A stretch of DNA of 25,225 bases from an uncultured archaeon (GTDB lineage Archaea > Asgardarchaeota > Lokiarchaeia > Sigyniarchaeales > SOKP01), in contig CAZALK010000029.1 in NCBI GenBank assembly GCA_964486045.1, positions 741-25,965 of the forward strand, in the 5' to 3' direction. Numbering within the stretch: position 1 is the first letter of the stretch; every line of letters begins with the position of its first letter. Shown in pieces: positions 7,316 through 18,905 of this stretch. The translations under genes and the position numbers were made by a program. The notes beneath the pieces are model-generated. The model was not told the DNA's origin. It worked only from the letters and a program-made list of their open reading frames with translations, and ran no database searches.

Positions 7316-7654
7316 ATGGTGTGTCAAGGTATAGAGATAATGGGGATTACGATGAACTTTGCAGATTTCTTAGTCTTTCCTACAACTTGTTTCTATCATT
7401 TCTGGTCTGTAATTTTTGCAGGGCTTTTTATTCTTCTAACTCTATTTTTATATAACAAGGAAAGGGAAGATATAATTAAGCCAGATATTATAAGCAGTGC
7501 GGGAACTGCGGCGAGTGCAGTTTGGTTGTTAGCATTGATTGGAACATTGATAACAAGTACCCAAGATTCTATCCCAATGGTACAAGTAGATATATTTATT
7601 TACATAACTGGTATTTGGATAACTATATCAGGGATCTGGTTCTTTAAGAAGTAA
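7316..7654 (+). CDS. Membrane protein (3 TM)
   Basis: 112 aa, three hydrophobic segments, abuts the upstream stop. Confidence 0.8.
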   Translation: MVCQGIEIMGITMNFADFLVFPTTCFYHFWSVIFAGLFILLTLFLYNKEREDIIKPDIISSAGTAASAVWLLALIGTLITSTQDSIPMVQVDIFIYITGIWITISGIWFFKK

Positions 7655-7698
7655 TTCAAATCGTTAAGAGATCTTACAGTCACAGGGTTCCTATGGCC

Positions 7699-7720
7699 TG
7701 TTTACAAGAAGATTTTTAAA
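7699..7720 (+). promoter_or_regulatory. Archaeal promoter: TGTTTACAAG box + TTTTTAAA TATA box
   Basis: TATA 7713-7720 lies 22-29 nt before ATG 7742; the same box recurs at 8077. Confidence 0.6.
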
Positions 7721-8151: not shown

Positions 8152-8496
8152 GTGGTTAAAGGAATGGATGTTAGAAAATCAGTATTGTCCTTCGCGTTCA
8201 TCGCGTTCACATTACTTGGTGTTTTATTTGGAATGAATATCATGGCCTTCATCTTTGGAAATCTTGGACCTACCCAGGCAGGATTAACAACTGGTACAGT
8301 TGCCTTTAATGTTAGTCAAAGTATTCAAAATTATTCGCTTGTTTCCATTGAAACATATGCAAGTAATTCCAACACCCAATTTACTACTTTATCAGTAGCT
8401 ATAACCTTGGTTATATTGTTAGCTGTGTTTGCGTTCTTCTGGTTCTTCTTCATGGGAAGTCAGGGAGGAAAAGGTAGTGGTAATTTCGGGAGTTAA
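8152..8496 (+). CDS. Putative major capsid protein, short form (two hydrophobic helices with a short sequon-bearing loop; spindle-shaped-virus VP1/VP3-like)
   Basis: GTG start; hydrophobic N- and C-terminal helices, sequons NVS and NYS, Gly/Lys tail; paralogue of 8561-9178; own promoter and terminator. Confidence 0.65.
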   Translation: MVKGMDVRKSVLSFAFIAFTLLGVLFGMNIMAFIFGNLGPTQAGLTTGTVAFNVSQSIQNYSLVSIETYASNSNTQFTTLSVAITLVILLAVFAFFWFFFMGSQGGKGSGNFGS

Positions 8497-8677
8497 ACAC
8501 ACTTTATTTTTTTTAATTTTTTTATTTTATTGAGAGAGAGAAAAACAATCAAAACAAAAAATGGTTCAAGGAATGGATGTTAAAAAATCAGTATTGGCTT
8601 TTGCAGGTATAGCCTTTCTACTGTTAGGTGTCTTATTTGGAATGAATATCATGGCCTTCATCTTTGGAAATCTTGGA
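8224..8677 (+). repeat. 45-bp identical direct repeat (8224-8268 / 8633-8677) shared by the two capsid-like genes
   Basis: ttatttggaatgaatatcatggccttcatctttggaaatcttgga occurs in both. Confidence 0.9.
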
Positions 8678-9132
8678 AATGTTAATAATTTTAAGGATCT
8701 AACTGGTACGATAGACAATGAAACAGATGCTTTTCTGAATAGCACTTTTGCCGCCGTTTATAATCTCTCTGTTAATGCAGATTCTAATTTTGCAGGGGGT
8801 TTCATTGTAACAGAAGCTTATTCGATTAATATTTCTAGTGGAGCCACACTCTTACTTATCCCTGCCGCTAATTATACTGTAGAGGCCACACTTGGAACGT
8901 TGACAAATGCAACGGCTACGGCTTACCCTAATGTTACTTTTAGCGGAACTTATTTATTTAAAGGGACTCCAGAACTTATAAGTCAGGGAGTTAATAATTA
9001 CTCGCTTGAATCAATAGAAACATATGCAAGTAGTTCCAACACCCAATTTACTACTTTATCAGTAGCTATAACCTTGGTTATATTGCTAGCTGTGTTTGCG
9101 TTCTTCTGGTTCTTCTTCATGGGGAGTCAGGG
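8350..9132 (+). repeat. 116-bp direct repeat (8350-8465 / 9017-9132, 3 mismatches) shared by the two capsid-like genes
   Basis: gaaacatatgcaagta...ttcttcttcatgggRagtcaggg, compared by eye. Confidence 0.9.
8503..8531 (+). terminator. Oligo-T archaeal-type terminator between the capsid-like paralogues
   Basis: T8 and T7 runs starting just after the stop at 8496. Confidence 0.65.
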
Positions 9133-9178
9133 TGGAGGAAGAAGTAAGGGAAATCCTAGAAAGGGGAACTTTAATTAA
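8561..9178 (+). CDS. Putative minor capsid protein, long form (same two helices plus ~86-aa sequon-rich beta insertion)
   Basis: N- and C-terminal parts nearly identical to 8152-8496; the insertion carries NET, NST, NLS, NIS, NYT, NAT and NVT. Confidence 0.65.
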   Translation: MVQGMDVKKSVLAFAGIAFLLLGVLFGMNIMAFIFGNLGNVNNFKDLTGTIDNETDAFLNSTFAAVYNLSVNADSNFAGGFIVTEAYSINISSGATLLLIPAANYTVEATLGTLTNATATAYPNVTFSGTYLFKGTPELISQGVNNYSLESIETYASSSNTQFTTLSVAITLVILLAVFAFFWFFFMGSQGGGRSKGNPRKGNFN

Positions 9179-9179
9179 G

Positions 9180-9368
9180 ATGGCGAGTAAAAGTTTAGAT
9201 CAATTAAGAAAAGAAGCTAAGGATTTAGCAGAAAGGAGAAAATTGATGGATGAAATAGGGCGTTTAAAAGCTAAGCCTGTTAAGCCTAAACCACCAACAA
9301 AGGGCCAGAAAGCCTTTAGAACATTCTCCAGGGGAATGGATAATTTTGCGAGATCTATGTTTCAATAG
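9180..9368 (+). CDS. Small basic protein (62 aa, MASKSLDQLRK...)
   Basis: ATG 9180 just after the upstream stop; the track's 9096 start overlaps the capsid gene and is unlikely. Confidence 0.7.
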   Translation: MASKSLDQLRKEAKDLAERRKLMDEIGRLKAKPVKPKPPTKGQKAFRTFSRGMDNFARSMFQ

Positions 9369-9408
9369 GTTTAGTTAACTTTAAAAATCTTATTTGTTAT
9401 ATTTTCTA

Positions 9409-10101
9409 ATGGCCACAGACTTATTAGGTACATTAGGACTAGGCGGGGCGTTTAATGTTTCAGGGGTTTTTTCTATAATCTTAAATATCATTCTTATTGT
9501 TGGAGTTGTTGCTATTTTTGGAGGGATTTTTTATGCAATGTATAAGTTTAAAGGATCTGGAAAATCAGATCTCAAACAAATATGTTGGTATGAGGAAGTT
9601 GCAGATAATCTTTTAGAGTTAGACATAGATAAAGCTAAAGAAATTACAGTTCCAGGAACAAATTTAAAAGTATTTTATGTTAAGGCTAAGGATCTTTGGT
9701 TGCCTCGTTTCTCGAGGGGAATGTCAAAGAGTAGATATTATGTTGCAATAACTCCAGATAGAGAAATAGTTAATTTTACATTAGGAAGTCTTTCAAAAGA
9801 TAGAAAAAACTCTGGCTTACATTACGATCATACGGATATGAGATGGGCCGCAGAAAATACCAGGGAGTTTATTAAAAGAAATTATAGAGATAAGGCTACG
9901 CCCTGGTGGAAGGAGTATAAAGAAATTATCAGCGTCGCTATTTTATTATTATTAATGACGTTCTGTTTTGTGATTATAATATTCTTCTTTAGAGATCTTG
10001 CAGCCGATTTAGGCCAGATAACGGGAACTGTTGGAGGTTATATTGATAAATTAAACGCCTGTAATCCTCTGCAAAGTGGAATAACATCTGCACCAAGTTA
10101 A
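9409..10101 (+). CDS. Membrane protein (N- and C-terminal TM helices flanking a soluble domain)
   Basis: ATG 9409 lies 22-29 nt after TTTAAAAA (9380-9387); two hydrophobic segments. Confidence 0.8.
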   Translation: MATDLLGTLGLGGAFNVSGVFSIILNIILIVGVVAIFGGIFYAMYKFKGSGKSDLKQICWYEEVADNLLELDIDKAKEITVPGTNLKVFYVKAKDLWLPRFSRGMSKSRYYVAITPDREIVNFTLGSLSKDRKNSGLHYDHTDMRWAAENTREFIKRNYRDKATPWWKEYKEIISVAILLLLMTFCFVIIIFFFRDLAADLGQITGTVGGYIDKLNACNPLQSGITSAPS

Positions 10102-10582: not shown

Positions 10583-10963
10583 ATGAAAAATATATTTAAA
10601 ATTATTAGTGAAGAAATGTTAAATTTTTTTAACAGGGATTTTAAAGAAGAGAATAAAAGATTTTGGAAGTTAACGCAGTTAGACAGAATTGAATATAATC
10701 TTTGGTACAGAACTATTGAAGAAAGATTTACTTTTCATACTATCTCTTTAATATATACTTTTATTTATTTACTTTTTTACTTTTTTACTATTTTGCTTTT
10801 AATTTATGTTGCTTTTGAGAATGTGGACTTGTTTGAAAAGATCCCTCTTTTAGTAACTGTAATTAAATATGTTATTTTCTTCTCGATAATTTATGATATT
10901 TTTACATTCTATAGGAGATATAGGGCCTTTGAGAAATTGAGAAAACATTATAAATTATCATAG
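10583..10963 (+). CDS. Membrane protein (2 TM)
   Basis: 126 aa, abuts the upstream stop, two aromatic-rich hydrophobic segments. Confidence 0.7.
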   Translation: MKNIFKIISEEMLNFFNRDFKEENKRFWKLTQLDRIEYNLWYRTIEERFTFHTISLIYTFIYLLFYFFTILLLIYVAFENVDLFEKIPLLVTVIKYVIFFSIIYDIFTFYRRYRAFEKLRKHYKLS

Positions 10964-10972
10964 GAGTAAGAA

Positions 10973-11194
10973 ATGAAAACAAAAATAGAAAGAGAAGTTA
11001 GATCCGCAGCTATAACCAGGGCATTAAGGGAAGATCCAACAATGCCCGAGGACGCTTTAGATGTTAGTGATAATGATTCCTGGATTCCCTGTTTAAAATG
11101 CGGATCTGAATTAACCCAGGAGAGAAAAGCTTTTTTTGTTTGTGTAAATTGTGGCCAAGAATTTATTGGAGATGAAGAGGACATGAGGAAATGA
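10973..11194 (+). CDS. Zn-ribbon protein
   Basis: CLKC...CVNC; GGAG upstream. Confidence 0.75.
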   Translation: MKTKIEREVRSAAITRALREDPTMPEDALDVSDNDSWIPCLKCGSELTQERKAFFVCVNCGQEFIGDEEDMRK

Positions 11195-11358
11195 TAAAAA
11201 TAGAAATCTCAACAGACGGAAAAAGGGTTTATGATGGTTATGATGAGGATAACCCCACAATGAAAGAATGTTCTTTGATATTATATCGTCTTGAACAAAT
11301 TAAACTTAATTTATTGGCCAAGGAATTTAAAAGTGAATTTGAAGTTAGTGAGGATTAA
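11191..11358 (+). CDS. Hypothetical 55-aa protein (MIKIEISTDGKRVY...), not in track
   Basis: ATGA overlap with the upstream gene; open to TAA 11358. Confidence 0.65.
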   Translation: MIKIEISTDGKRVYDGYDEDNPTMKECSLILYRLEQIKLNLLAKEFKSEFEVSED

Positions 11359-11360
11359 TA

Positions 11361-11531
11361 ATGGTAACAAGTTCTACAAGGCAAGGTTTTTATTTCTTAT
11401 TTATAATTTTAATAATGTTTGTAAGCCAGCTTTTAGATTGGTTTGGGTTCTATGAAGCATTTGTTATTATTGCTCTGTGTGGGATGGTGCTTAAGTTAAC
11501 GGATATTGAGGAAGCTATACGAGAAAAGTAG
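11361..11531 (+). CDS. 56-aa two-TM membrane protein (MVTSSTRQGFYFLFII...), not in track
   Basis: Starts 2 nt after the upstream stop; its TAG directly abuts the left inverted repeat. Confidence 0.65.
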   Translation: MVTSSTRQGFYFLFIILIMFVSQLLDWFGFYEAFVIIALCGMVLKLTDIEEAIREK

Positions 11532-11771
11532 GCCATAGGAAGTCCGTGAGTGCATGTTCTTCTATCGAGTTGATATATTACTAAGGGGGATTTATCCCTA
11601 AAAACCCTAACCTCACTTTCCTATGGAACTTATGAAAAATTAAAATAACTTTTATTGAAAATATTTTTTATCGTCGATAAGAAAAAGTGGCCAGAGATCT
11701 CCTGGAGATCTTGCAGCTGCAATCGAAGGACCATAATCCTTAACCATGATTTCGTGTGGAAAGCAGGAGAT
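11532..11771 (+). repeat. 240-bp inverted repeat, left copy (IR-L)
   Basis: Reverse complement of 16173-16412, with one mismatch (11756/16188). Confidence 0.95.
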
Positions 11772-11778
11772 TATTATA

Positions 11779-11799
11779 GGGCCTGATAATCACAGGCCC
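11779..11799. other. GC-rich hairpin next to IR-L, possibly the 3' end of the leftward transcript
   Basis: gggcctg-N7-caggccc. Confidence 0.4.
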
Positions 11800-11840
11800 C
11801 AGTGGTTTGGATTCGCAATACATTTGGGGAATATTATTTT

Positions 11841-12044
11841 TTATTTATCTTTTTTTACAAATTGTTTAAACAATTTAGATACTATAATAATTGCTCCAGA
11901 AACATTCAGAAAAACTAATACAATCTTAATTAAATATAATTTATCTCCTGTAAGTCCAACAATAAATCCAACAATAAAATTTAAGATTAATAATACTGAT
12001 GCTACAAAAAATATCTTATTTATTTCTAATATTACTTTAAACAT
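11841..12044 (-). CDS. Small two-TM membrane protein
   Basis: 67 aa, two hydrophobic segments, basic tail; last gene of the leftward operon. Confidence 0.6.
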   Translation of the reverse strand: MFKVILEINKIFFVASVLLILNFIVGFIVGLTGDKLYLIKIVLVFLNVSGAIIIVSKLFKQFVKKDK

Positions 12045-12059
12045 TTTATTCTCACTTTT

Positions 12060-12202
12060 CTAAGAACTCCAATTCTTACCTATCCTTTTTAATTCAACTA
12101 ATCTTAACTTTTTCCATTCATCAGCTTCCATCACATTAGGATTTTTATTTTTTTAAGATTTTGATATTGCTCTTCATCAGTTAAATCTTTATGTATTGAC
12201 AT
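12060..12202 (-). pseudogene. Possible small gene interrupted in an A7 run, or two tiny coupled ORFs
   Basis: One extra A at 12148-12154 gives a single 47-aa ORF filling the gap. Confidence 0.3.
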
Positions 12203-12458
12203 CTTCTTTTGGTTCAAAAGTAACTCCCTCTTCTGGAACGTATTCTTCTGAATATTTATTCTTTTTATGTAAAACATCTCTTCTCTCTTTAAGTATTGAT
12301 TCTGGCGAAGGCATCTTTCCATTAAAGTCTATGAAAATACTAAATCCTAATTTCCTTAAGACTGTTATCATGTAGAGCCACAAATATTTATTATCTCTGG
12401 TCCTCTTATCCTCTTGCAGTGTTGCCTCAACAGCCTCGATTAATTTCATTTTCCACAC
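12189..12458 (-). CDS. Hypothetical protein (start may be 12449)
   Basis: 89-aa ORF in a tightly packed leftward operon. Confidence 0.7.
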   Translation of the reverse strand: MWKMKLIEAVEATLQEDKRTRDNKYLWLYMITVLRKLGFSIFIDFNGKMPSPESILKERRDVLHKKNKYSEEYVPEEGVTFEPKEDVNT

Positions 12459-12640
12459 TCCTTAATCATATTTTCTTTTTCTATTATAGCATCCTTTAAA
12501 ATCTTATCAAGTTCTTCATTAGTAACATCATGTTTTTCAATCAAACCAGATAGTAAAGTTCCATATTGGGTCACTTTATCTTGTAGAAATTTAATTACTC
12601 TTATTGTTCTTTTTGCTTCCTGAATAATTAAATCACTCAT
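12446..12640 (-). CDS. Hypothetical helical protein
   Basis: 64 aa, overlapping both neighbours. Confidence 0.7.
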   Translation of the reverse strand: MSDLIIQEAKRTIRVIKFLQDKVTQYGTLLSGLIEKHDVTNEELDKILKDAIIEKENMIKECGK

Positions 12641-12780
12641 TGATATTTCCCCTCTAAATATTTCATTGCTTGATAATCTGTTAGATAATTTTGTAATGTA
12701 AAATATTCTAAGATCAGGGGTGTTACTAAGTTATCGTCCCTGTTGTGGCTTAGATCCAATAATTTATTTAAAGTTTTCAT
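12637..12780 (-). CDS. Hypothetical 47-aa protein (MKTLNKLLDLSH...), not in track
   Basis: ATGA overlaps at both ends. Confidence 0.6.
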   Translation of the reverse strand: MKTLNKLLDLSHNRDDNLVTPLILEYFTLQNYLTDYQAMKYLEGKYQ

Positions 12781-12932
12781 TCAACATAATCCTCCAATAC
12801 ACAACATAAATTATAAACAAAGCTTCCATCTTTTTGGGAATCTTCATTCTCAAATAAAACCTGGCCTAACTTTTTGAATTGTTCTTTAGTAAGTTGCAAA
12901 TATTTTTTTCCTTCAATTTCTATAATTTTCAT
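12777..12932 (-). CDS. Hypothetical 51-aa protein (MKIIEIEGKKYLQLTK...), not in track
   Basis: ATGA overlaps at both ends. Confidence 0.65.
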   Translation of the reverse strand: MKIIEIEGKKYLQLTKEQFKKLGQVLFENEDSQKDGSFVYNLCCVLEDYVE

Positions 12933-13171
12933 TTGATTAATTTCTTTTTTAATTCCAAAAAATCTTTAATCTTACATTCAATATCCTGGTCTTTATTCTT
13001 TTCTAAGATCCCCATAGCAAAATGTTTAGAAAACCAATCATCAAGAATTTTTTCTTTATTTTTTAATTCTGGAAGTTGTAATAAAAAAGTTCTTGCGCCG
13101 ATGGTAGATCTCTTCGCGATCAGACTAATAACTTCATCCCTATCTTCTTTTGTTAAAATATATTTTTTCAT
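12929..13171 (-). CDS. Hypothetical protein
   Basis: 80 aa, ATGA overlaps at both ends. Confidence 0.7.
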   Translation of the reverse strand: MKKYILTKEDRDEVISLIAKRSTIGARTFLLQLPELKNKEKILDDWFSKHFAMGILEKNKDQDIECKIKDFLELKKKLIK

Positions 13172-13344
13172 TTTCCTAACAGTATTGTTATTCTATTTCC
13201 AGATCCTCTCCTTCTACCCTTTGGTTTCAAACGCCTAAAGCAAGGATCACAGTGAGGCACTCCATTCAATACGGCCTCGGCAATCTCACCGCATTGACAT
13301 ATCTTTTTTAACTTAACTATCTGTAGGTATTCTTGTCTATGCAT
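13168..13344 (-). CDS. Small Zn-finger protein with basic tail (track start 13368; 13344 more likely)
   Basis: CQC...CDPC; GGAG upstream of ATG 13344. Confidence 0.65.
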   Translation of the reverse strand: MHRQEYLQIVKLKKICQCGEIAEAVLNGVPHCDPCFRRLKPKGRRRGSGNRITILLGK

Positions 13345-13780
13345 TTTTATCTCCTTTAACTTTTTCAAATGCTTCCAATATCAGAGTCATAGCAGGGATC
13401 CCTAAAACTATTGATTGATTCTTAGCAACAACTTCCGCATCGACGTTTCGCCCCTCTTTTATCATTCTTGAAAGATTGTCTATAATTATTGGCCTTCTTT
13501 CTTGCTTCTGTTTTCTCCACTCTTCTAACTTCTGCAAGTTATCTACTATTTCATTTTCCTTAACTTCTAGTTCTGAAATTTCATTTATCATATGTTTTTT
13601 ATTTCTTCTTAAAGTTTTTAGCCTCTTAATTGGATTAATATTTTCATCCCAAGAATTAACTAGGAATTCAATAAACTCCCCTTGCTTCATACCATTTATA
13701 TTTGATGCTTGTTCTACTAACCTAATAACATCATTATTCAAATTAAACGTTTTGTGTGATGAATCAGGTTTTTTTCTCAT
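13337..13780 (-). CDS. RHH-like DNA-binding protein with coiled coil
   Basis: KTFNLNNDVIRLVEQAS..GMKQGEFIEFLV (strand-helix-G-helix), then a heptad-like stretch. Confidence 0.65.
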   Translation of the reverse strand: MRKKPDSSHKTFNLNNDVIRLVEQASNINGMKQGEFIEFLVNSWDENINPIKRLKTLRRNKKHMINEISELEVKENEIVDNLQKLEEWRKQKQERRPIIIDNLSRMIKEGRNVDAEVVAKNQSIVLGIPAMTLILEAFEKVKGDKNA

Positions 13781-14055
13781 TGTTTCTTGATCCTTCTTTT
13801 AATATCTCTATCCAATATCAGAAATGCAATAAGAACAACCAACAAAGCTCCAGGAATAGCTAAGAAAAAAAGTTCAGTCATTTTTCTTGAACCCCTTTGT
13901 TTTTCTTTCGCAAAATATAATTTACACTCTTCACAGAAATAACATTCTTCCTTGGAATTAGGTATTTTTATTGTCTTAAATTTTCCAATACATCTTGGAC
14001 AGTGTATCTTTCCAGTTTTCTTATTCTTTAATAACTTATACCTTTTAATTATCAT
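13777..14055 (-). CDS. Zn-ribbon protein with C-terminal TM helix
   Basis: CPRC...CEEC, then MTELFFLAIPGALLVVLIAFLIL; start chosen after the upstream stop. Confidence 0.6.
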   Translation of the reverse strand: MIIKRYKLLKNKKTGKIHCPRCIGKFKTIKIPNSKEECYFCEECKLYFAKEKQRGSRKMTELFFLAIPGALLVVLIAFLILDRDIKRRIKKQ

Positions 14056-14056
14056 T

Positions 14057-14314
14057 TTATTCATCCTTCTCCTCACTCTCTTCTAGATCTGTTGTTTTCC
14101 ATCTACACTTAAGGCAGAGATCATTTAAAATCATTCTAGAATAATCATTGCAGACCTTACATCTCCCTGTATTGTAAGAGTCCCCTGGATAAAACCACCG
14201 CATACTTTTTTTAAATGTTCTCCCTCGATAGAGGGCTACCAAAATACCTAAAACCCAGAGACAAAATATAAATAGGGAACCGTTAATTAAAATAAATAGA
14301 TCTGTTTGAATCAT
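14057..14314 (-). CDS. Membrane-anchored Zn-finger protein
   Basis: N-terminal TM; CKVC...CLKC. Confidence 0.7.
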   Translation of the reverse strand: MIQTDLFILINGSLFIFCLWVLGILVALYRGRTFKKSMRWFYPGDSYNTGRCKVCNDYSRMILNDLCLKCRWKTTDLEESEEKDE

Positions 14315-14466
14315 TTGAGTTTCTTCTGCTCCCTTCTACCTTTTATTTCCATAAGTTCTTTATGTTTTTTTGAATTCAAATGGACATACATTAATTTTTC
14401 AGCATGCAGTTTAGATTTTCCCTTGATCCTTGCCCCACATTTACAATCTATAAATTTATCTTCCAT
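14311..14466 (-). CDS. 51-aa C2H2-type (U1/matrin-like) Zn-finger protein, not in track
   Basis: MEDKFIDCKCGARIKGKSKLHAEKLMYVHLNSKKHKELM...; ATGA overlap with the next gene. Confidence 0.7.
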   Translation of the reverse strand: MEDKFIDCKCGARIKGKSKLHAEKLMYVHLNSKKHKELMEIKGRREQKKLK

Positions 14467-14468
14467 TT

Positions 14469-14606
14469 TTATTCTAAAATAATTCTACGAATTCCCCCTT
14501 TATTTCCTATCAAAATAATCTCACTGATTCCTTCAACTCTTTCAAAGCTTTCTATAGAATCCCCTGTTAATTCAATCAAATCTCCCTTACTATTTTTTGC
14601 TTTCAT
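14469..14606 (-). CDS. Hypothetical 45-aa protein (MKAKNSKGDLIELTG...), not in track
   Basis: Fills the operon gap; stop lies 2 nt before the next ATG. Confidence 0.6.
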   Translation of the reverse strand: MKAKNSKGDLIELTGDSIESFERVEGISEIILIGNKGGIRRIILE

Positions 14607-14621
14607 TTTCTTATTTATTTT

Positions 14622-14879
14622 TTATAATTCTTTTAATTCTTCTTTTAATTTTATGAACATTATTTTTAGAAATGGAAAATTATAATCATCAAAACGATCT
14701 CTGTAGTCTTCCCAAACCTTATTTAATTTTTCATCAATATGATCCAAGATTTCTATTTTTGTTTTTTCACGAGAAAATTTAGTCAAACGCAATAATTCTT
14801 GAAATTGTTTTGGTTTCAGTTTAGGGGAAAAATTCTCTTCAAATAAAATTTCTTGTTCAAACTCTTTTATTGTTTTCAT
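14622..14879 (-). CDS. Hypothetical helical protein
   Basis: ATG 14879 (MKTIKEF) lies just after the upstream stop. Confidence 0.7.
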   Translation of the reverse strand: MKTIKEFEQEILFEENFSPKLKPKQFQELLRLTKFSREKTKIEILDHIDEKLNKVWEDYRDRFDDYNFPFLKIMFIKLKEELKEL

Positions 14880-14880
14880 G

Positions 14881-15066
14881 TTATTTTTTCCTTTCCTGAT
14901 ATACAATATTTAAACCAATTACTCCTAGAAGAATTGTAATAGTTCCTAAAAATTTGTATACCGTTTTATAATAATGATTCTCTGGAACCAAAATAAAAAT
15001 AGTTCCTAGGCCCATGCAAATTAATAAAACACTAACTCCTAATTTAAAAGTAACTTGTTGTTTCAT
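14881..15066 (-). CDS. Small two-TM membrane protein
   Basis: 61 aa, two hydrophobic segments. Confidence 0.65.
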   Translation of the reverse strand: MKQQVTFKLGVSVLLICMGLGTIFILVPENHYYKTVYKFLGTITILLGVIGLNIVYQERKK

Positions 15067-15188
15067 CTAGCAAACCCCCCTAACCTTGGACGCAAACCAG
15101 GAAAGAAAGCCTGCCTCCAATCCTCGGCAGTATCTATCCTAGTTGCATCATCACAATCATTTAAGATCTCTTGTGCAGATTCATTCAT
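15063..15188 (-). CDS. Hypothetical 41-aa protein (MNESAQEILNDC...), not in track
   Basis: Overlaps both neighbours (8 nt and ATGA). Confidence 0.55.
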   Translation of the reverse strand: MNESAQEILNDCDDATRIDTAEDWRQAFFPGLRPRLGGFAR

Positions 15189-15387
15189 TGTCTAGCTCCT
15201 GGAAGTTCAAAATAACAACTTGCTTATAGTCAGATGTTTTCTCTATCTCTTCCTTCATTGCTTTTGTAACGTCAGAATAACTCTTTCGGGTTATTCTTTT
15301 ATCTGTGAAAACTGTTGCATTTCCAAAGCGGCTTCCAATCGCAACATAACTCACATGATAGCAGTATGTTTCTTTATTTAATCCCAT
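15181..15387 (-). CDS. Hypothetical protein, first gene of the leftward operon
   Basis: ATG 15387 lies 22-29 nt from TTTATAAA (track start 15393). Confidence 0.7.
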   Translation of the reverse strand: MGLNKETYCYHVSYVAIGSRFGNATVFTDKRITRKSYSDVTKAMKEEIEKTSDYKQVVILNFQELDNE

Positions 15388-15408
15388 AACCATTATAGTA
15401 TTATAGGG

Positions 15409-15428
15409 TTTATAAATCTTCTGTTTCC
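15409..15428 (-). promoter_or_regulatory. BRE/TATA promoter of the leftward small-gene operon
   Basis: - strand reads GGAAACAGAAGATTTATAAA; resembles GAAGATTTTTAAA at 7708-7720. Confidence 0.65.
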
Positions 15429-15494
15429 ATTGGAACTCTCACTTCTTCCAGATCTGATTTTGTATTGTATGTATTATACGTATAGTAATACATA

Positions 15495-15515
15495 TAATAA
15501 TAATAATAATAATAA
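15495..15515. repeat. (TAA)7 microsatellite in AT-rich non-coding region
   Basis: Read directly from the sequence. Confidence 0.85.
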
Positions 15516-15848
15516 GGGGTTCTTCCAATTCGGTAACTCATTGATCTCATAATGCTAACATTGTAAATACAATACTCTTATTATATGATTTCTCTATTTT
15601 CCATAAGAAACAGAGGTTAGACAATACTCACTTTCTCAAGATCGTATGTATAATTATCTCTAATATTTTTCATGTGTTCAAGTGTTAATGGCTTTAGTAA
15701 AACTGATCGGTATACCAGTAATAAAACCTTCTTGTAACAATATCTTTTAACAATTCCTTCTTAAAGCTTGTATTAAATACAAATGATTATCATTAATGCT
15801 TATCTTCCCTTATTTTTTTGAAGATATAAGCCTCAATATGAAGGTCTT

Positions 15849-15987
15849 CGGATTTGTGGCCCTGGATCAATTAAGAAGAATTTGGCTCACTACGTTCGCG
15901 GATTTGGAGATAGGGGGGGTTCCTCGCGCATGCGCGAGGTTTGGAAACGGCGAAGCCGTTTCTTATATGACTCCGCCACAAAATCCG
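15849..15987. other. GC-rich multi-hairpin element; candidate replication origin or packaging signal
   Basis: 18-bp palindrome 15922-15939; 8-bp stem with GAA loop 15944-15962; enclosing stem 15849-15860 / 15975-15987. Confidence 0.55.
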
Positions 15988-16030
15988 TATTAATAAAAAA
16001 GAATAAAAAGGCCTGGTAGTTCTAAAATCT

Positions 16031-16168
16031 ATGAGTGAAACAATCCATTTTGACCATAAAGGGAAATATCTCTGCAACTGGGCCACGCTTGCAAACAAGG
16101 ATAAGCTTTCAAAGAACTGGCGAAAAGTTACTTGTAAGAATTGCCTAAAGACTAATCTCTATCGTTAA
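16031..16168 (+). CDS. 45-aa Zn-finger protein (H...C...VTCKNC), not in track
   Basis: MSETIHFDHKGKYLCNWATLANKDKLSKNWRKVTCKNCLKTNLYR; ends 4 nt before IR-R. Confidence 0.65.
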   Translation: MSETIHFDHKGKYLCNWATLANKDKLSKNWRKVTCKNCLKTNLYR

Positions 16169-16172
16169 GTAG

Positions 16173-16412
16173 ATCTCCTGCTTTCCATACGAAATCATGG
16201 TTAAGGATTATGGTCCTTCGATTGCAGCTGCAAGATCTCCAGGAGATCTCTGGCCACTTTTTCTTATCGACGATAAAAAATATTTTCAATAAAAGTTATT
16301 TTAATTTTTCATAAGTTCCATAGGAAAGTGAGGTTAGGGTTTTTAGGGATAAATCCCCCTTAGTAATATATCAACTCGATAGAAGAACATGCACTCACGG
16401 ACTTCCTATGGC
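16173..16412 (-). repeat. 240-bp inverted repeat, right copy (IR-R)
   Basis: Reverse complement of 11532-11771; begins 5 bp downstream of the recombinase stop. Confidence 0.95.
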
Positions 16413-16417
16413 TTATT

Positions 16418-17326
16418 TTATTTCTTCATAAGCCTTTCTTTTAATTTTTCTTTATCTATATGCGTGTAGATTTCTGTAGAAGTTATAGAGGAATGTCTTA
16501 ATATCTCCTGGACTTCCCGCATATTCAAACCCTTTTCATTTAGTAGATATGTGGCCCATGAATGTCTTAACCTATGGGGCCTAACAATAGTTTCCTCAAT
16601 AAGTGAGCCTTCATTTCCTTTTTTTGTAATTCCCGCAGTAACACCCGCCTCCTTTAGTTTTTTTCTCCATGAGAGGGCTTTATTAGCCAAATAAGTTATA
16701 TTGTCTGGAAGTTTGTCTATAAACAAAAATGATTCAGGAGATCTCAGTTTATTATTTTCTCTTATGTATCTTGCAATTCTAACCATCAACTCAGGGGGAA
16801 CTAATGCAATTCCTTCTTTATCTCCCTTCCCAAATACCCTACACTCGCCCATCTTAGAAACATCCTTTTTCCAGGCTTCCCAATCGAATGATATAACTTT
16901 TATTTTTAGAAGTTCTCCAAGTCTTAAACCACAAAAGAAAGTTATTAGGATCATTATTTTATCTTTTTCATCTGTGAATATTTTCTCCAGTTCTAGAACC
17001 TCTTCTCTAGTAAGTGGTTTAACTAGCCTGTATTTTTTATGTCCTGTTATAGAGGGCAATTCTATCTCTAGAATATTTTCTAATGCTTCAGAATTAATAT
17101 TAAGTTCCTTATGATTTCTTAATAGATATGCTTTTAAGTTTCTTAAGAAACTTCTGGAAGATGGGTTTTGATTTCCTTTCTCTGAAATGAAACGCCCAAC
17201 AGTTTCATTATTAAATACATCATAAGTATTAAACTTTGTAAAATAATAAAGGTACTCTCTAATAGTTCTTTCCTTAAGATTTTTATTAACTAGCCAGGAT
17301 CTAAACCTATCTATAGGCACGTTCAC
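16418..17326 (-). CDS. Tyrosine recombinase, XerA/XerC/D-like
   Basis: Intact catalytic set: CGLRLGEL (R), GKGDK (K), PHRLRH (HxxR), LRHSS (H), TEIYTH (Y); 302 aa with no extra arm-binding domain. Confidence 0.95.
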   Translation of the reverse strand: MNVPIDRFRSWLVNKNLKERTIREYLYYFTKFNTYDVFNNETVGRFISEKGNQNPSSRSFLRNLKAYLLRNHKELNINSEALENILEIELPSITGHKKYRLVKPLTREEVLELEKIFTDEKDKIMILITFFCGLRLGELLKIKVISFDWEAWKKDVSKMGECRVFGKGDKEGIALVPPELMVRIARYIRENNKLRSPESFLFIDKLPDNITYLANKALSWRKKLKEAGVTAGITKKGNEGSLIEETIVRPHRLRHSWATYLLNEKGLNMREVQEILRHSSITSTEIYTHIDKEKLKERLMKK

Positions 17327-17558
17327 TTTCGAGTACCATCCTTTTTTTACTTAAGATCCTTTTCAATAAGAAGATTCCAACAACTCCAAAGATAATGAAG
17401 AGCCAGTTTTTTATAATAAATCCAAACATGAAATAGAGAGACTTGCCTAGTAGCCAGAAAACCCCAAAGATTACTAGGCCCAATAAAATAGCCATGATAT
17501 AATATGCTGTAAAGGATTCGTTCTTTGGATTGATTGCATCGGGGCTAAGGATCCTCAT
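17307..17558 (-). CDS. Small two-TM membrane protein co-transcribed with the recombinase
   Basis: 83 aa, hydrophobic, overlaps both neighbours. Confidence 0.7.
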   Translation of the reverse strand: MRILSPDAINPKNESFTAYYIMAILLGLVIFGVFWLLGKSLYFMFGFIIKNWLFIIFGVVGIFLLKRILSKKRMVLESERAYR

Positions 17559-17990: not shown

Positions 17991-18905
17991 CTAAACACTG
18001 GGGACTAATGATTTTATGGAAGCATTAAGGTTATTATGGATGGCTTTATTTTCACTTCTAACTAATTGCATGACAGTCTTACCTATTTTTTTATCCATAA
18101 GCATTATATTTAATTCAGTGTTTACTGAACTATACTTTTTGCCGTTGAAGTAGCATACATGAATCAATCCTTCTTTTGTAAATTTTCCTTCAAGTAATTG
18201 TTTATAAATTTTTTCTATAAATGTTAGTGGTATTTCCCCTGTTTCCTTGTTGAAACTCTCTGCACGCCTTACCTTCTTAACTTCCTTATAAACTATCTTC
18301 TGTTTCACAGTCATATCATTAAAATATAAATAGCCTCTAAAGGTGCTAAGCTTGTGATATTGTGGTTTAAAATCTGGATCCTTTTGAATTCTCTTACCCC
18401 ATTTCTCCTCGACCTTTTTATTATAGGGTGCATCCCATTTATCTTGACTATAAAGTCTCCCTTGTAGGGGCATGTGAATAATAGCAACTCCCCTCTCAAC
18501 TATATGTAAATGCATAAAATACAAATCTCTTAGATCTTTATCTAGAGAAAAGAAGTTTGGAATGGCTGAACCAAGAACATTAAAGTTATCTCGATAATTT
18601 GTTATTATTTTTATAAGTTCTTGCTGAACCGATAGATTGAAGTTCCTTTTATAACTGGAATTTATTGCCTCATCATCCCAACAGGAACCATACATTTGAT
18701 TTTTAAGGAGTTTGATTATTTGCTCCCTTTGATAAACTTGATGTTTCCAAGGATTAAATTTTGGAATTCTATGAAAGATTTTTCCCGCGCATGTACTTTT
18801 CCCATTACCTCTATCTCCACTGAAAGCTAAGTTAGCGTCGAATTCATTCCCTTGTCTTTCTTTAATAATATCAACTATCTCTTTTATTGTCCATGTAATT
18901 TTCAT
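17991..18905 (-). CDS. P-loop ATPase, probable morphogenesis/genome-extrusion ATPase
   Basis: Walker A GDRGNGKST; Walker B SCWDDEA; downstream R...PNFFSLDKDLR segment reminiscent of pI/Zot-like and spindle-virus ATPases. Confidence 0.8.
   Translation of the reverse strand: MKITWTIKEIVDIIKERQGNEFDANLAFSGDRGNGKSTCAGKIFHRIPKFNPWKHQVYQREQIIKLLKNQMYGSCWDDEAINSSYKRNFNLSVQQELIKIITNYRDNFNVLGSAIPNFFSLDKDLRDLYFMHLHIVERGVAIIHMPLQGRLYSQDKWDAPYNKKVEEKWGKRIQKDPDFKPQYHKLSTFRGYLYFNDMTVKQKIVYKEVKKVRRAESFNKETGEIPLTFIEKIYKQLLEGKFTKEGLIHVCYFNGKKYSSVNTELNIMLMDKKIGKTVMQLVRSENKAIHNNLNASIKSLVPSV

What the first reader, a model, noticed from the sequence alone, without database searches (positions are those of the whole stretch)
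11532..17326. 2-micron-plasmid-like flip system in an archaeal virus: 240-bp inverted repeats, adjacent tyrosine recombinase and asymmetric candidate origin
Seen: two 240-bp IRs (1 mismatch) divide the circle into 4401-bp and ~20-kb unique regions; an intact Xer-like recombinase ends 5 bp from IR-R; the candidate origin is ~185 bp from IR-R but ~4.1 kb from IR-L; no tRNA-derived attP is evident. Established: the yeast 2-micron circle has two long IRs, the tyrosine recombinase Flp and an origin close to one IR, so recombination during replication turns theta forks into a double rolling circle (Futcher model) using host enzymes only. Inference: this recombinase flips the 4.4-kb segment, giving A/B isomers, and may amplify the genome rather than integrate it. 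I know of no such system described in archaeal viruses, but cannot search the literature.
Basis: partly seen in the sequence, partly recalled or inferred. Interest (0 to 1): 0.92.

Follow-up and report, generated by a model that had tools for sequence, protein, structure and literature searches.

The report
Flippable cargo segment in archaeal virus
A 24.9-kb circular, spindle-virus-like element from marine sediment carries two near-identical 240-bp inverted copies of the conserved DNA element that normally sits once behind its recombinase gene, and the 4.4-kb accessory module between them lies back-to-front compared with the closest relative, so it probably flips; nothing supports the proposed yeast-plasmid-style copy-number amplification.

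Summary
Two 240-bp inverted repeats (one mismatch) bracket 4,401 bp on a 24,930-bp circle, and an intact XerA-like tyrosine recombinase ends 5 bp from one repeat.

- The repeat unit ("E") is a conserved element. It is seen once, directly after the recombinase stop, in four loci from three related viruses, at 79% identity over 237 nt where the recombinases share only 60%.
- Only this genome has a second, inverted full copy. One more distant relative (L054) has a weaker 79-nt pair, also with one arm on the recombinase stop.
- Two cargo genes inside the segment have collinear homologues next to E in relative L217, and one of them also in L065. There they lie on the strand opposite the recombinase, here on the same strand with reversed order. 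The assembled genome is therefore the flipped isomer of the relatives' layout.
- In another clade of the family, the slot after the recombinase holds an initiator-type tRNA-Met gene. The enzyme family is therefore basically an integrase with an adjacent attachment site.
- The candidate origin is not conserved, and no replication gene was recognised in the window.
- Invertible segments are already known in haloarchaeal viruses.
- An earlier scan note on another genome (e1-3413794) recorded the integrase–tRNA-Met module, not this repeat system.

The parts
11532..11771 (+). IR-L: the distal, inverted copy of element E. The outer domain faces the morphogenesis genes and the inner domain faces the segment.
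   Evidence: 240 bp, 1 mismatch. The E profile hits it at E = 4e-72. On the window + strand it has the same orientation relative to the cargo as E has in L217.
16173..16412 (-). IR-R: the copy of element E at the family's native position, 5 nt after the recombinase stop and in the same orientation relative to the recombinase as in L217, L218 and L065.
   Evidence: 79% identity over 237 nt to L217/L218; E = 9e-76.
11772..16172 (.). 4,401-bp segment between the repeats. It is self-contained: about 13 small minus-strand ORFs (11841-15393), one small plus-strand Zn-finger-like ORF (16034-16168) and a 640-nt divergent intergenic region. It sits in the family's hypervariable cargo slot.
   Evidence: ORF list. 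No confident Pfam or PHROG family. In relatives the distance from the recombinase to the w9394 homologue varies from 0.5 to 8.7 kb and holds unrelated cargo.
12189..12458 (-). Cargo gene w12189 (89 aa), used as an orientation marker.
   Evidence: Homologues in L217 (9325-9591, minus strand, 51%, 1e-20) and L065 (1359-1628, minus strand, 47%, 2e-20). There they lie on the strand opposite the recombinase, here on the same strand.
13168..13368 (-). Cargo gene w13168 (66 aa), the second orientation and order marker.
   Evidence: Homologue in L217 at 10656-10817, minus strand, 54%, 5e-19. In L217 it is farther from the recombinase than the w12189 homologue, whereas here it is nearer.
16418..17326 (-). 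XerA-like tyrosine recombinase/integrase (302 aa) with a complete catalytic set.
   Evidence: PF00589. PHROG integrase. NCBIfam XerA_Arch at 124.6 bits, below the cut-off of 220. Best PDB matches are archaeal XerA, 4a8e and 5hxy. Invariant R, K, HxxR, H and Y.
16362..16376 (-). 15-mer AGTTGATATATTACT inside each repeat copy (also at 11568-11582 on the plus strand). It is the most widely conserved recombinase-proximal motif and a candidate part of the recombinase site.
   Evidence: Exact copies occur next to the recombinase stop in L065, L085 and L054 (the second, inverted copy in L054 lies in its arm 2). Copies with up to 2 mismatches lie at the stop in L031, L048, L066 and L086. There are only three other such hits in 773 kb of relatives.
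7647..7699 (+). C1: a degenerate third copy of the outer ~55 nt of E. It lies right after the stop of gene 7316-7654 and upstream of the capsid genes, the same position as arm 2 of relative L054.
   Evidence: pair I2, 53 nt, 72%; alignment; L054 arms.
15849..15987 (.). Its function is unknown.
   Evidence: Folds with z -2.4 (+) and -3.6 (-). No Rfam match. No counterpart in relatives.
11361..11531 (+). Last gene of the morphogenesis-side block (56 aa). Its stop codon abuts IR-L, as the recombinase stop abuts IR-R.
   Evidence: A homologue lies 330 nt after the recombinase in L009 with no repeat or segment in between.
17991..18905 (-). P-loop ATPase (Walker A GDRGNGKST) with Zot/pI-like features. 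Together with the two-TM capsid-like proteins at 8152-9178, it marks the element as a wyrdvirus-like spindle-type virus.
   Evidence: comparison with bioRxiv 10.1101/2021.07.29.453957. It is conserved in 34 of 43 related loci.

Best explanation
The element is a circular, wyrdvirus-like (spindle-type) archaeal virus or episome. Behind its XerA-like integrase gene sits a conserved 240-bp non-coding element, E. E has an outer hairpin domain with the family's recombinase-proximal 15-mer, an AT/T-rich centre with T-runs in both directions and one hairpin-plus-T terminator-like site, and an inner domain of dyads. E is most likely the enzyme's cis-acting site region (att/dif-like).

The related viruses sampled so far show E once. 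This genome has a second, inverted full copy at the far end of a self-contained 4.4-kb accessory-gene module. Recombination between the two copies turns the module around. It could be carried out by the recombinase, if its core site lies in E, or by host homologous recombination across 240 identical bases. The assembled sequence shows the flipped state relative to the ancestral layout.

Because both copies carry the same T-rich, terminator-like centre and the module has its own divergent promoter region, flipping should be largely expression-neutral. It is then a structural isomerism like that of 2-micron or plastid genomes, not a phase-variation switch.

Shown: the repeats, the conservation and native position of E, the intact recombinase, and the reversed polarity relative to the closest E-bearing relatives.

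Inferred: that E is the recombinase's substrate, that inversion produced the present state, and that flipping still goes on.
For: - Near-perfect 240-bp repeats with unique flanks and no other copy in the assembly.
- E is conserved at 79% over 237 nt directly after the recombinase stop in L217/L218, whose recombinases are only 60% identical. Its outer domain is also present in L065 and L221. A non-coding stretch more conserved than the neighbouring gene implies function.
- The 15-mer inside E sits at the recombinase stop in a second clade. L054 has two inverted copies in 79-nt arms, 4.1 kb apart, an independent second case of an inverted pair anchored at the recombinase.
- The type of downstream element follows the recombinase tree (19 changes against 35 for shuffled labels). 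Kinship alone can also produce this.
- In the tRNA clade the same slot holds a tRNA-Met gene, the classic attP position.
- Cargo genes w12189 and w13168 are collinear with homologues beside E in L217, and w12189 also in L065. Their strand, and in L217 their order, relative to the recombinase are reversed. Flipping the segment in silico restores the L217 order recombinase-E-w12189-w13168.
- The catalytic residues are intact.
- The closest solved and curated relatives are archaeal XerA enzymes. From my own knowledge, these act on simple sites without accessory proteins.
- A review reports that archaeal tyrosine recombinases catalyse inversions, and that the pTN3 integrase recombines any identical segments of 104 bp or more (PMC8371274).
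Against: - There is no read-level evidence.
- The assembled orientation across a 240-bp repeat could itself be an assembler's choice. If so, the 'inverted relative to relatives' argument falls, though the repeats remain.
- The comparative argument rests on two small genes (about 50% identity), one 13.7-kb contig (L217) and one 2.4-kb contig (L065).
- The recombinase's core site has not been located.
- The nearest relative by recombinase (L164, 70%) has no E in the 0.8 kb after the gene. E is therefore not indispensable next to this enzyme.
- How the second inverted copy arose is unexplained. Site-specific insertion would give direct repeats.
- One mismatch in 240 bp fits a very recent duplication as well as homogenisation by frequent recombination.
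Confidence: 0.48

Rival explanations
1. 2-micron-type amplification. The recombinase flips the segment during bidirectional replication from an origin close to IR-R. This turns converging forks into a double rolling circle and raises copy number using host enzymes only.
For: - The geometry resembles the yeast plasmid: a circular genome, two long inverted repeats, and a tyrosine recombinase beside one of them.
- A structured GC-rich cluster lies 186 bp from IR-R.
- No replication protein was recognised in the window, so reliance on host replication is plausible. One relative encodes an MCM helicase, which suggests theta-type replication in the family.
Against: - The origin is only a guess. The hairpin cluster has no counterpart in any relative and no Rfam family.
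- The turning points of cumulative GC skew coincide with gene-strand switches at about 11.5 and 19.5 kb, not with the cluster.
- The repeat pair is not a family trait: the full E was found twice only in this genome. Amplification by this route cannot be the family's replication strategy.
- The recombinase is XerA-like and not an Flp relative. In relatives it sits in an integrase-tRNA layout.
- No partition or recombinase-control genes were recognised.
Confidence: 0.06
2. Static rearrangement. The second copy of E and the reversed module are the scar of a one-off event, such as an inversion-duplication by template switching or illegitimate recombination between co-infecting relatives. The recombinase works only as an integrase or dimer resolvase, with E (or part of it) as attP or dif, and the segment no longer flips at a meaningful rate.
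For: - The family context points to integration: a tRNA-Met gene directly after the recombinase in 14 relatives and a 3' tRNA fragment in L005.
- The region after the recombinase stop is a rearrangement hotspot whose breakpoints fall exactly at the stop codon.
- One mismatch in 240 bp fits a recent duplication.
- The assembler produced one unbroken path through both copies rather than breaking at them, as expected if one orientation dominates.
Against: - In a replicating circular genome, 240 identical bases in inverted orientation are a good substrate for homologous recombination. They are also a substrate for the recombinase if its site lies in E, so complete stasis would need explaining.
- No attB or integrated copy was found. 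There is no match in the host-bin genome, none of substance in 400 Asgard genomes, and all family members in 185,579 species genomes sit on virus-sized contigs of 21-34 kb.
Confidence: 0.3
3. E is not a recombination site. It is a duplicated functional cassette kept identical for its own sake, for example a bidirectional terminator with a small RNA or 31-codon micro-gene, or a replication origin. Any inversion is then a side effect of homologous recombination.
For: - Each copy lies between convergent genes. It contains T-runs in both directions and one hairpin-plus-T terminator-like site.
- The plus strand of IR-L folds modestly better than shuffles (z -2.5).
- The inner domain holds a 31-codon frame that stays open in L217 (read from the alignment).
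- An AT-rich centre flanked by dyads is also what an archaeal origin looks like.
- L164 lacks E after a 70%-identical recombinase.
Against: - There is no Rfam family even at a permissive threshold. The opposite strand does not fold better than chance (z -0.3).
- The closing stem is not kept in L065.
- A 33-nt block is identical between the window and L217/L218, including the would-be synonymous positions. That argues for a DNA-level site rather than a peptide.
- E always abuts the recombinase stop, the position taken by the tRNA attachment gene in the other clade.
Confidence: 0.12
4. Assembly artefact. The repeat pair or the join across it is a chimera of strain variants, or an arbitrary resolution of a collapsed repeat.
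For: - The contig comes from a metagenome bin with 7.8% contamination and sits on a scaffold with an N100 gap.
- The orientation of a segment between inverted repeats cannot be decided without spanning reads.
Against: - Both copies have four different unique flanks, and a private mismatch separates them.
- All sampled 31-mers of 10800-17400 are present in run X1, and 90% in a second sample.
- The repeat unit is a genuine conserved element in independent assemblies.
- The contig broke in the adhesin repeats, not at the inverted repeats.
Confidence: 0.04

Closest known systems
Yeast 2-micron circle (Flp/FRT, 599-bp inverted repeats, Futcher amplification)
   Same: A circular dsDNA element with two long, near-identical inverted repeats that split it into two unique regions. 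A tyrosine recombinase gene lies in a unique region. The enclosed and outer regions carry complete transcription units, so flipping is expression-neutral.
   Different: - The recombinase is XerA-like and not Flp.
- The target site within the repeat is unproven, and the origin is unknown.
- No Rep1/Rep2/STB/Raf-like control was recognised.
- The repeat pair is not conserved in the family.
- Isomers and amplification have not been observed.
- The repeats are 240 bp, and the two unique regions are very unequal (4.4 and 20 kb).
Invertible tail-fibre region of haloarchaeal myoviruses phiCh1/phiH1 (Int1, ORF34-36) (PMC6210493; Klein et al. 2012, cited in PMC8371274)
   Same: An archaeal virus with a XerD-type tyrosine recombinase and inverted repeats bounding a few-kb invertible segment. 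Inversions are visible when related genomes are compared.
   Different: - There the recombinase gene lies inside the segment. The repeats are clusters of short repeats within two tail-fibre genes, and inversion swaps fibre C-termini (phase variation).
- Here the recombinase is outside the segment, the repeats are non-coding 240-bp units, and no gene is split or re-coupled.
Invertible L segment of Halobacterium virus phiH (flanked by ISH1.8) (PMC6210493)
   Same: A large self-contained module of an archaeal virus, bracketed by long repeats, that inverts and behaves as a semi-autonomous unit.
   Different: - There the repeats are copies of an insertion sequence, and the segment can circularise as a plasmid.
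- Here the repeats are copies of the recombinase-adjacent element, and no transposase is present.
Integrase-attP modules of archaeal integrative elements (attP in a tRNA gene next to int) and XerA/dif
   Same: The recombinase has the full catalytic set and its closest relatives are XerA enzymes. In 14 relatives an initiator-type tRNA-Met gene follows the gene, as in int-attP modules. E occupies that slot here. From my own knowledge, its 240 bp is about the size of a complex attP.
   Different: - No tRNA or tRNA fragment lies in E.
- No attB or provirus was found.
- The putative site is present twice, in inverted orientation.
- The score is below the XerA equivalog cut-off.
Homology-driven inversions by the pTN3 integrase of Thermococcus, and plastid-type inverted-repeat flip-flop
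   Same: Identical segments of about 100 bp or more in inverted orientation suffice for inversion, either by a tyrosine integrase with relaxed specificity (PMC8371274) or by general recombination.
   Different: Those cases concern chromosomes or organelles, whereas this is a small viral genome. No activity data exist for this recombinase family.

Membership tests
2-micron-type flip/amplification system | Circular dsDNA replicon with two long inverted repeats that separate two unique regions | tested here: met
   24,930-bp circle; 240-bp repeats with one mismatch; unique regions of 4,401 bp and about 20,049 bp.
2-micron-type flip/amplification system | Flp-family recombinase | tested here: not met
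   The protein matches PF00589 only and is closest to archaeal XerA. No Flp family appears among the Pfam hits.
2-micron-type flip/amplification system | The recombinase target site lies inside each inverted repeat | tested here: inconclusive
   The repeat contains the family's recombinase-proximal 15-mer and is the conserved element adjacent to the gene. No core site with inverted arms and a 6-8-nt spacer could be defined in E, and no binding or cleavage data exist.
2-micron-type flip/amplification system | Replication origin close to one repeat | tested here: inconclusive
   A GC-rich hairpin cluster lies 186 bp from IR-R. It is not conserved and the skew is uninformative. Origin mapping cannot be done with these tools.
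2-micron-type flip/amplification system | A and B isomers coexist, and copy number is amplified through recombination during replication | not testable with these tools
Tyrosine recombinase superfamily (Phage_integrase, PF00589) | Catalytic domain with R, K, H-x-x-R, H/W and the nucleophilic Y | tested here: met
   PF00589 at 76.7 bits against a cut-off of 27.1. R135, K167, H251, R254, H278 and Y287 are invariant in 30 sequences.
Archaeal XerA (NCBIfam NF040815 equivalog) | Score above the curated equivalog cut-off | tested here: not met
   124.6 bits against a cut-off of 220. It is XerA-like, not XerA.
Integrase with attP in a tRNA gene | A tRNA gene or 3' tRNA fragment adjacent to the integrase, and a matching attB in a host genome | tested here: not met
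   No tRNA in the window. No host match. The feature is met in 14 relatives of another clade, so it defines the family's likely ancestral mode, not this genome.
Recombinase-driven invertible DNA segment (inverton in the broad sense) | Two inverted copies of a site bracket a segment next to a site-specific recombinase | tested here: met
Recombinase-driven invertible DNA segment (inverton in the broad sense) | Both orientations are observed | tested here: inconclusive
   The opposite polarity relative to the recombinase is seen in relatives L217 and L065. It was not seen within one population, and the assembled orientation was not verified by reads.
Wyrdvirus-like spindle-type archaeal viruses | His1/SSV-type two-TM capsid protein(s), a pI/Zot-like morphogenesis ATPase without a TM domain, an adhesin, and a conserved morphogenetic block | tested here: inconclusive
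   - Two paralogous proteins with N- and C-terminal hydrophobic helices.
- A P-loop ATPase whose nearest Atlas clusters include Zot on 18% of members.
- A fibre-like 1,245-aa protein with PHROG tail-fibre hits.
- Conserved synteny across more than 40 loci.
- No direct sequence comparison with the named wyrdvirus contigs was possible.

The most novel reading that the evidence does not exclude
An archaeal virus uses a XerA-like recombinase and two inverted copies of its 240-bp site region in the way the yeast 2-micron plasmid uses Flp/FRT. It flips a module that carries the origin during replication, and so amplifies a genome that encodes no replication proteins of its own.
Probability: 0.06. 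Interest if true: 0.85.

Novelty: new variant of a known kind. Interest (0 to 1): 0.45.

Why it matters
If the segment really flips, this would be an archaeal virus outside the haloarchaeal myoviruses with a recombinase-linked invertible module. It would also be of an unusual kind: a whole self-contained accessory cassette bounded by full copies of the integrase-adjacent element, rather than a gene-swapping switch.

It also defines a large, poorly described family of 18-34-kb sediment elements. More than 1,000 recombinase homologues were found. In this family the sequence just after the integrase stop codon is the hotspot where cargo is exchanged.

Three clade-specific types of adjacent element occur there: an initiator tRNA-Met gene, a GTGAGAG motif, and the E/15-mer element. 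That gives concrete candidate sites for biochemical work on archaeal XerA-like integrases.

The amplification idea would be important if true, but it currently rests on geometry alone.

Tried and rejected
The three runs found are stored as k=31 contigs, which cannot phase a 240-bp repeat anyway.
- Other assembly of the same virus: a 100%-identical recombinase on a 6,557-bp contig (P0001) could not be fetched.
- attB and provirus search:
  - No second hit of the repeat, and no spacer-like hit, in the 5.18-Mb bin.
  - In 400 Asgard genomes, nearly all matches were chance hits to the AT-rich centre. A 35-nt match inside an aminotransferase gene of one genome was not reproduced: the four other short hits to the same block lie in unrelated contexts. 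This was rejected as an attB.
- RNA families: no Rfam hit at gathering or permissive thresholds.
- Phage records and IMG/VR: no DNA match in phage records. In IMG/VR the recombinase alone found nothing. The profile found only five family members, none with E, and the 26-nt E block had no exact match.
- Transposon reading: no target-site duplication at the outer repeat borders (read), and no transposase among the segment's ORFs. Rejected.
- Insertion of a circular satellite by site-specific recombination: this would give direct, not inverted, repeats. Rejected on logic.
- Integron-like cassette reading, prompted by earlier scan notes: only one segment is present, the arms are 240 bp and the interior has many genes. 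It was not pursued further.
- Dif-like core: a plausible 7+6+7 site follows the 15-mer in the L054 clade, but no equivalent could be defined in E.
- tRNA-based host link: the relatives' tRNA-Met genes have no match in this bin.
- The careful tree search did not finish in time, so the quick tree was used.

Full report

Yes.
- The repeat finder reports one outstanding inverted pair: 11525-11771 and 16173-16419, 247 nt, 99%, with 4,401 nt between the arms.
- A pairwise alignment shows an exact core of 240 bp (11532-11771 and 16173-16412) with a single mismatch at 11756.
- The next-best inverted pair in the window is 53 nt at 72%.
- The window is G000:C29:741-25965. Its first 295 nt repeat at its end, and the 640 nt before the scaffold's N100 gap equal window 24291-24930. 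The molecule therefore assembles as a 24,930-bp circle, divided by the repeats into 4,401 bp and about 20,049 bp.
- The 302-aa ORF 16418-17326 (-) is a tyrosine recombinase (PF00589, 2.4e-21; PHROG integrase). Five nucleotides separate its stop codon from the repeat end.
- The catalytic R135, K167, H251-x-x-R254, H278 and Y287 are invariant in an alignment of 30 homologues.
- ARAGORN finds no tRNA.

**2. What is the element?**

- The bin is a 5.18-Mb, 31% GC Loki-lineage Asgard MAG with 7.8% contamination.
- Nothing else in the bin matches the window: there is no second copy of the repeat, no spacer-like hit and no related element. The host assignment therefore rests on binning only.
- The genome encodes two paralogous small proteins with N- and C-terminal hydrophobic helices.
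- It encodes a P-loop ATPase (GDRGNGKST) whose nearest language-model clusters include Zot/pI-type assembly ATPases.
- It encodes a 1,245-aa fibre-like protein.
- That is the gene set described for wyrdviruses, the spindle-type viruses of Asgard archaea (bioRxiv 10.1101/2021.07.29.453957).
- The recombinase has more than 1,000 homologues at 50-70% identity, on sediment contigs that are typically 18-34 kb.
- I collected 84 related loci from metagenomes and species genomes and seven more from other assemblies.
- They share one architecture:
  - a leftward block of homologues of w22651 and w20147;
  - then the w18908 homologue, the ATPase and the recombinase, reading rightward;
  - then a hypervariable stretch of 0.5-8.7 kb;
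  - then the 3' end of the morphogenesis operon (homologues of w9394, the capsid genes, w7316, w6887, w3648, w3050 and w2130), converging on the recombinase.
- The hypervariable stretch carries unrelated cargo: methyltransferases, a reverse transcriptase, helicases, AAA ATPases and wHTH proteins.
- Homology between this genome and the relative with the closest recombinase (L164, 70%) stops exactly at the recombinase stop codon.

**3. What is the repeat unit?**

- In L217/L218 (recombinase 60% identical) the 240 bp directly after the stop codon are homologous to nearly the whole repeat: 79% over 237 nt, with the same orientation as IR-R and the same inner boundary.
- One block of 33 nt is identical between them and the window.
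- L065 (64%) and L221 (63%) share the outer ~100 nt.
- A profile of the element (E) finds it only in these four loci and twice in the window.
- E is therefore a conserved, normally single-copy, non-coding element attached to the recombinase gene. IR-R is the copy at the native position.
- A 15-mer within E (AGTTGATATATTACT) is also found at the recombinase stop in a second clade, in the opposite orientation. There are only three other hits at up to 2 mismatches in 773 kb of relatives.
- In a third clade the slot holds a full tRNA-Met(CAT) gene with the A1:U72 pair typical of archaeal initiator tRNAs. It was seen in 14 loci, and L005 has only a 3' fragment.
- A fourth clade has the motif AAAGTGAGAGTT there.
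- The element type follows the recombinase tree: 19 changes against a shuffled mean of 35.3. Kinship alone also produces such clustering.
- An integrase followed by a tRNA gene is the textbook int-attP layout (PMC8371274).
- The most economical reading is that whatever follows the stop codon is the enzyme's site, and that E is the site region of this sub-clade.
- Alternative roles for E are not excluded: terminator, small RNA or micro-gene, or origin. E contains T-runs in both directions and one hairpin-plus-T terminator-like site, and an AT-rich centre between dyads.

**4. Does the repeat pair occur elsewhere?**

- Of 48 metagenome and genome-collection loci with at least 1.5 kb after the recombinase (33 of them with at least 4.5 kb), only L054 has a significant inverted pair with one arm at the stop codon: 79 nt, 81%, 4.1 kb apart, each arm holding the exact 15-mer. 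Neither L216 nor L217 has one.
- L054's near relative L085 lacks the second arm.
- In L054 the second arm lies just upstream of the capsid genes.
- The window has a degenerate third copy of E's outer ~55 nt at the equivalent place (7647-7699).
- So the IR-recombinase linkage is not a conserved system. Inverted secondary copies of the recombinase-proximal element have arisen at least twice.

**5. Has the segment been inverted?**

- Two segment genes have homologues beside E in the E-bearing relatives.
- L217 reads: recombinase (+), E, then several genes, the w12189 homologue (9325-9591, minus strand, 51%), then the w13168 homologue (10656-10817, minus strand, 54%).
- L065 reads: recombinase (+), E, then the w12189 homologue (1359-1628, minus strand).
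- A six-frame comparison shows that the window's IR-L plus cargo is collinear with L217's E plus cargo. In the window, however, the recombinase is attached to the other end.
- Relative to the recombinase, the cargo genes are therefore on the same strand instead of the opposite one, and in reversed order.
- Flipping the segment between the repeats in silico reproduces the L217 order.
- Caveats:
  - It rests on two small genes and two contigs.
  - The orientation of a segment between 240-bp repeats in a short-read assembly depends on spanning pairs that I could not inspect.

**6. What could not be tested**

- The runs that hold the element are stored as k=31 contigs, which collapse the repeat.
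- A second assembly of the same virus (P0001) is withheld.
- Whether both isomers coexist today is therefore open.

**7. The amplification hypothesis**

- Its specific requirements are an origin near one repeat and recombination during replication. Neither has support beyond geometry.
- The hairpin cluster has no counterpart in any relative and matches no RNA family.
- The turning points of cumulative GC skew coincide with gene-strand switches.
- The enzyme is XerA-like: NCBIfam XerA at 124.6 bits against a cut-off of 220, and PDB 4a8e and 5hxy as best matches. It is not Flp-like.
- Its family context is integration.
- Most members of the family manage without any repeat pair.
- I put this reading at about 6%.

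**8. Integration was not confirmed either**

- No attB was found in the bin or in 400 Asgard genomes. Nearly all matches were chance hits to the AT-rich centre, and one 35-nt match in an aminotransferase gene was not reproducible.
- All family members in the 185,579-species collection sit on virus-sized contigs.

**9. Comparison with known systems**

- Inversion by a XerD-type recombinase is established in the haloarchaeal viruses phiCh1/phiH1, where it swaps tail-fibre genes.
- The phiH L segment inverts between IS copies (PMC6210493; PMC8371274).
- The claim that no such system is known in archaeal viruses therefore holds only for the amplification aspect.
- The present case differs from phiCh1:
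  - the recombinase is outside the segment;
  - the repeats are full non-coding copies of the integrase-adjacent element;
  - the segment is a self-contained cassette, so inversion should not change expression.
- In that respect it works more like the 2-micron or plastid isomerism.
- The wyrdvirus and Asgard-virome papers I could search do not mention such repeats or inversions.

**10. Verdict**

- Inversion is plausible and has comparative support (about 0.5).
- Amplification is unsupported.
- I rate it a new variant of a known kind (a recombinase-associated invertible segment) in a little-studied virus family, of moderate interest.

Noticed in passing
L004, L008, L010, L012, L014-L018, L022-L024, L040, L084 (20-180 nt after the recombinase stop, opposite strand): Fourteen related elements carry a complete tRNA-Met(CAT) gene with an initiator-type A1:U72 pair directly after the integrase gene, and L005 has only a 3' fragment. 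This is the likely attP of that clade. Several of these contigs are about 18 kb and look like complete episomes.
   Followed up: partly
window 7647-7699: A degenerate third copy (72% over 53 nt) of the outer part of the repeat unit lies right after the stop of gene 7316-7654 and upstream of the capsid genes. Arm 2 of relative L054 (11868-11943) sits at the same position.
   Followed up: partly
L086:8277-9332 (-): A 352-aa reverse transcriptase (PF00078, 5e-22) lies in the cargo slot of a related element binned with an unclassified archaeon. It may belong to a diversity-generating retroelement or a defence/anti-defence system.
   Followed up: no
L216:4443-6662 (+): A related 29.5-kb element encodes a full MCM helicase (MCM_OB, MCM, MCM_lid) in a second variable region. 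This suggests that replication modules are swapped in and out in this family, as reported for wyrdviruses.
   Followed up: no
related loci, within 30 nt after the recombinase stop or just upstream of its start (for example L009, L012, L029, L061, L016): The 12-mer AAAGTGAGAGTT recurs at the borders of the recombinase gene: 19 of 42 occurrences lie within -40 to +200 nt of the gene end. Near-variants occur in the window at 15434 (-) and inside the repeat (AAAGTGAGGTTA). Its function is unknown.
   Followed up: partly
window 16198-16293 (+) and 11651-11746 (-): The inner domain of each repeat copy holds a 31-codon ATG frame (MVKDYGPSIAAARSP...). It stays open, with substitutions, in L217. But a 33-nt block is identical including third codon positions, so a DNA-level site seems more likely than a peptide.
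   Followed up: partly
whole window / bins of relatives (L084-L087): The host is uncertain. Relatives are binned with a Woesearchaeota MAG, an unclassified archaeon and even a CPR bacterium. This bin has 7.8% contamination and no CRISPR spacer or other sequence link to the element.
   Followed up: partly
window 17991-18905 (-): A conserved 304-aa protein has Walker A GDRGNGKST and Zot/pI-like features but no Pfam, PHROG or NCBIfam hit. It is probably the morphogenesis ATPase of the family.
   Followed up: partly
L054, L085, L086, L049, L050 and others, 15-45 nt after the recombinase stop: In the 15-mer clade the motif is followed by a dif-like arrangement (CAACTTT - 6 nt - AAAGTTG in L054). 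It is a candidate core site for these XerA-like enzymes.
   Followed up: no
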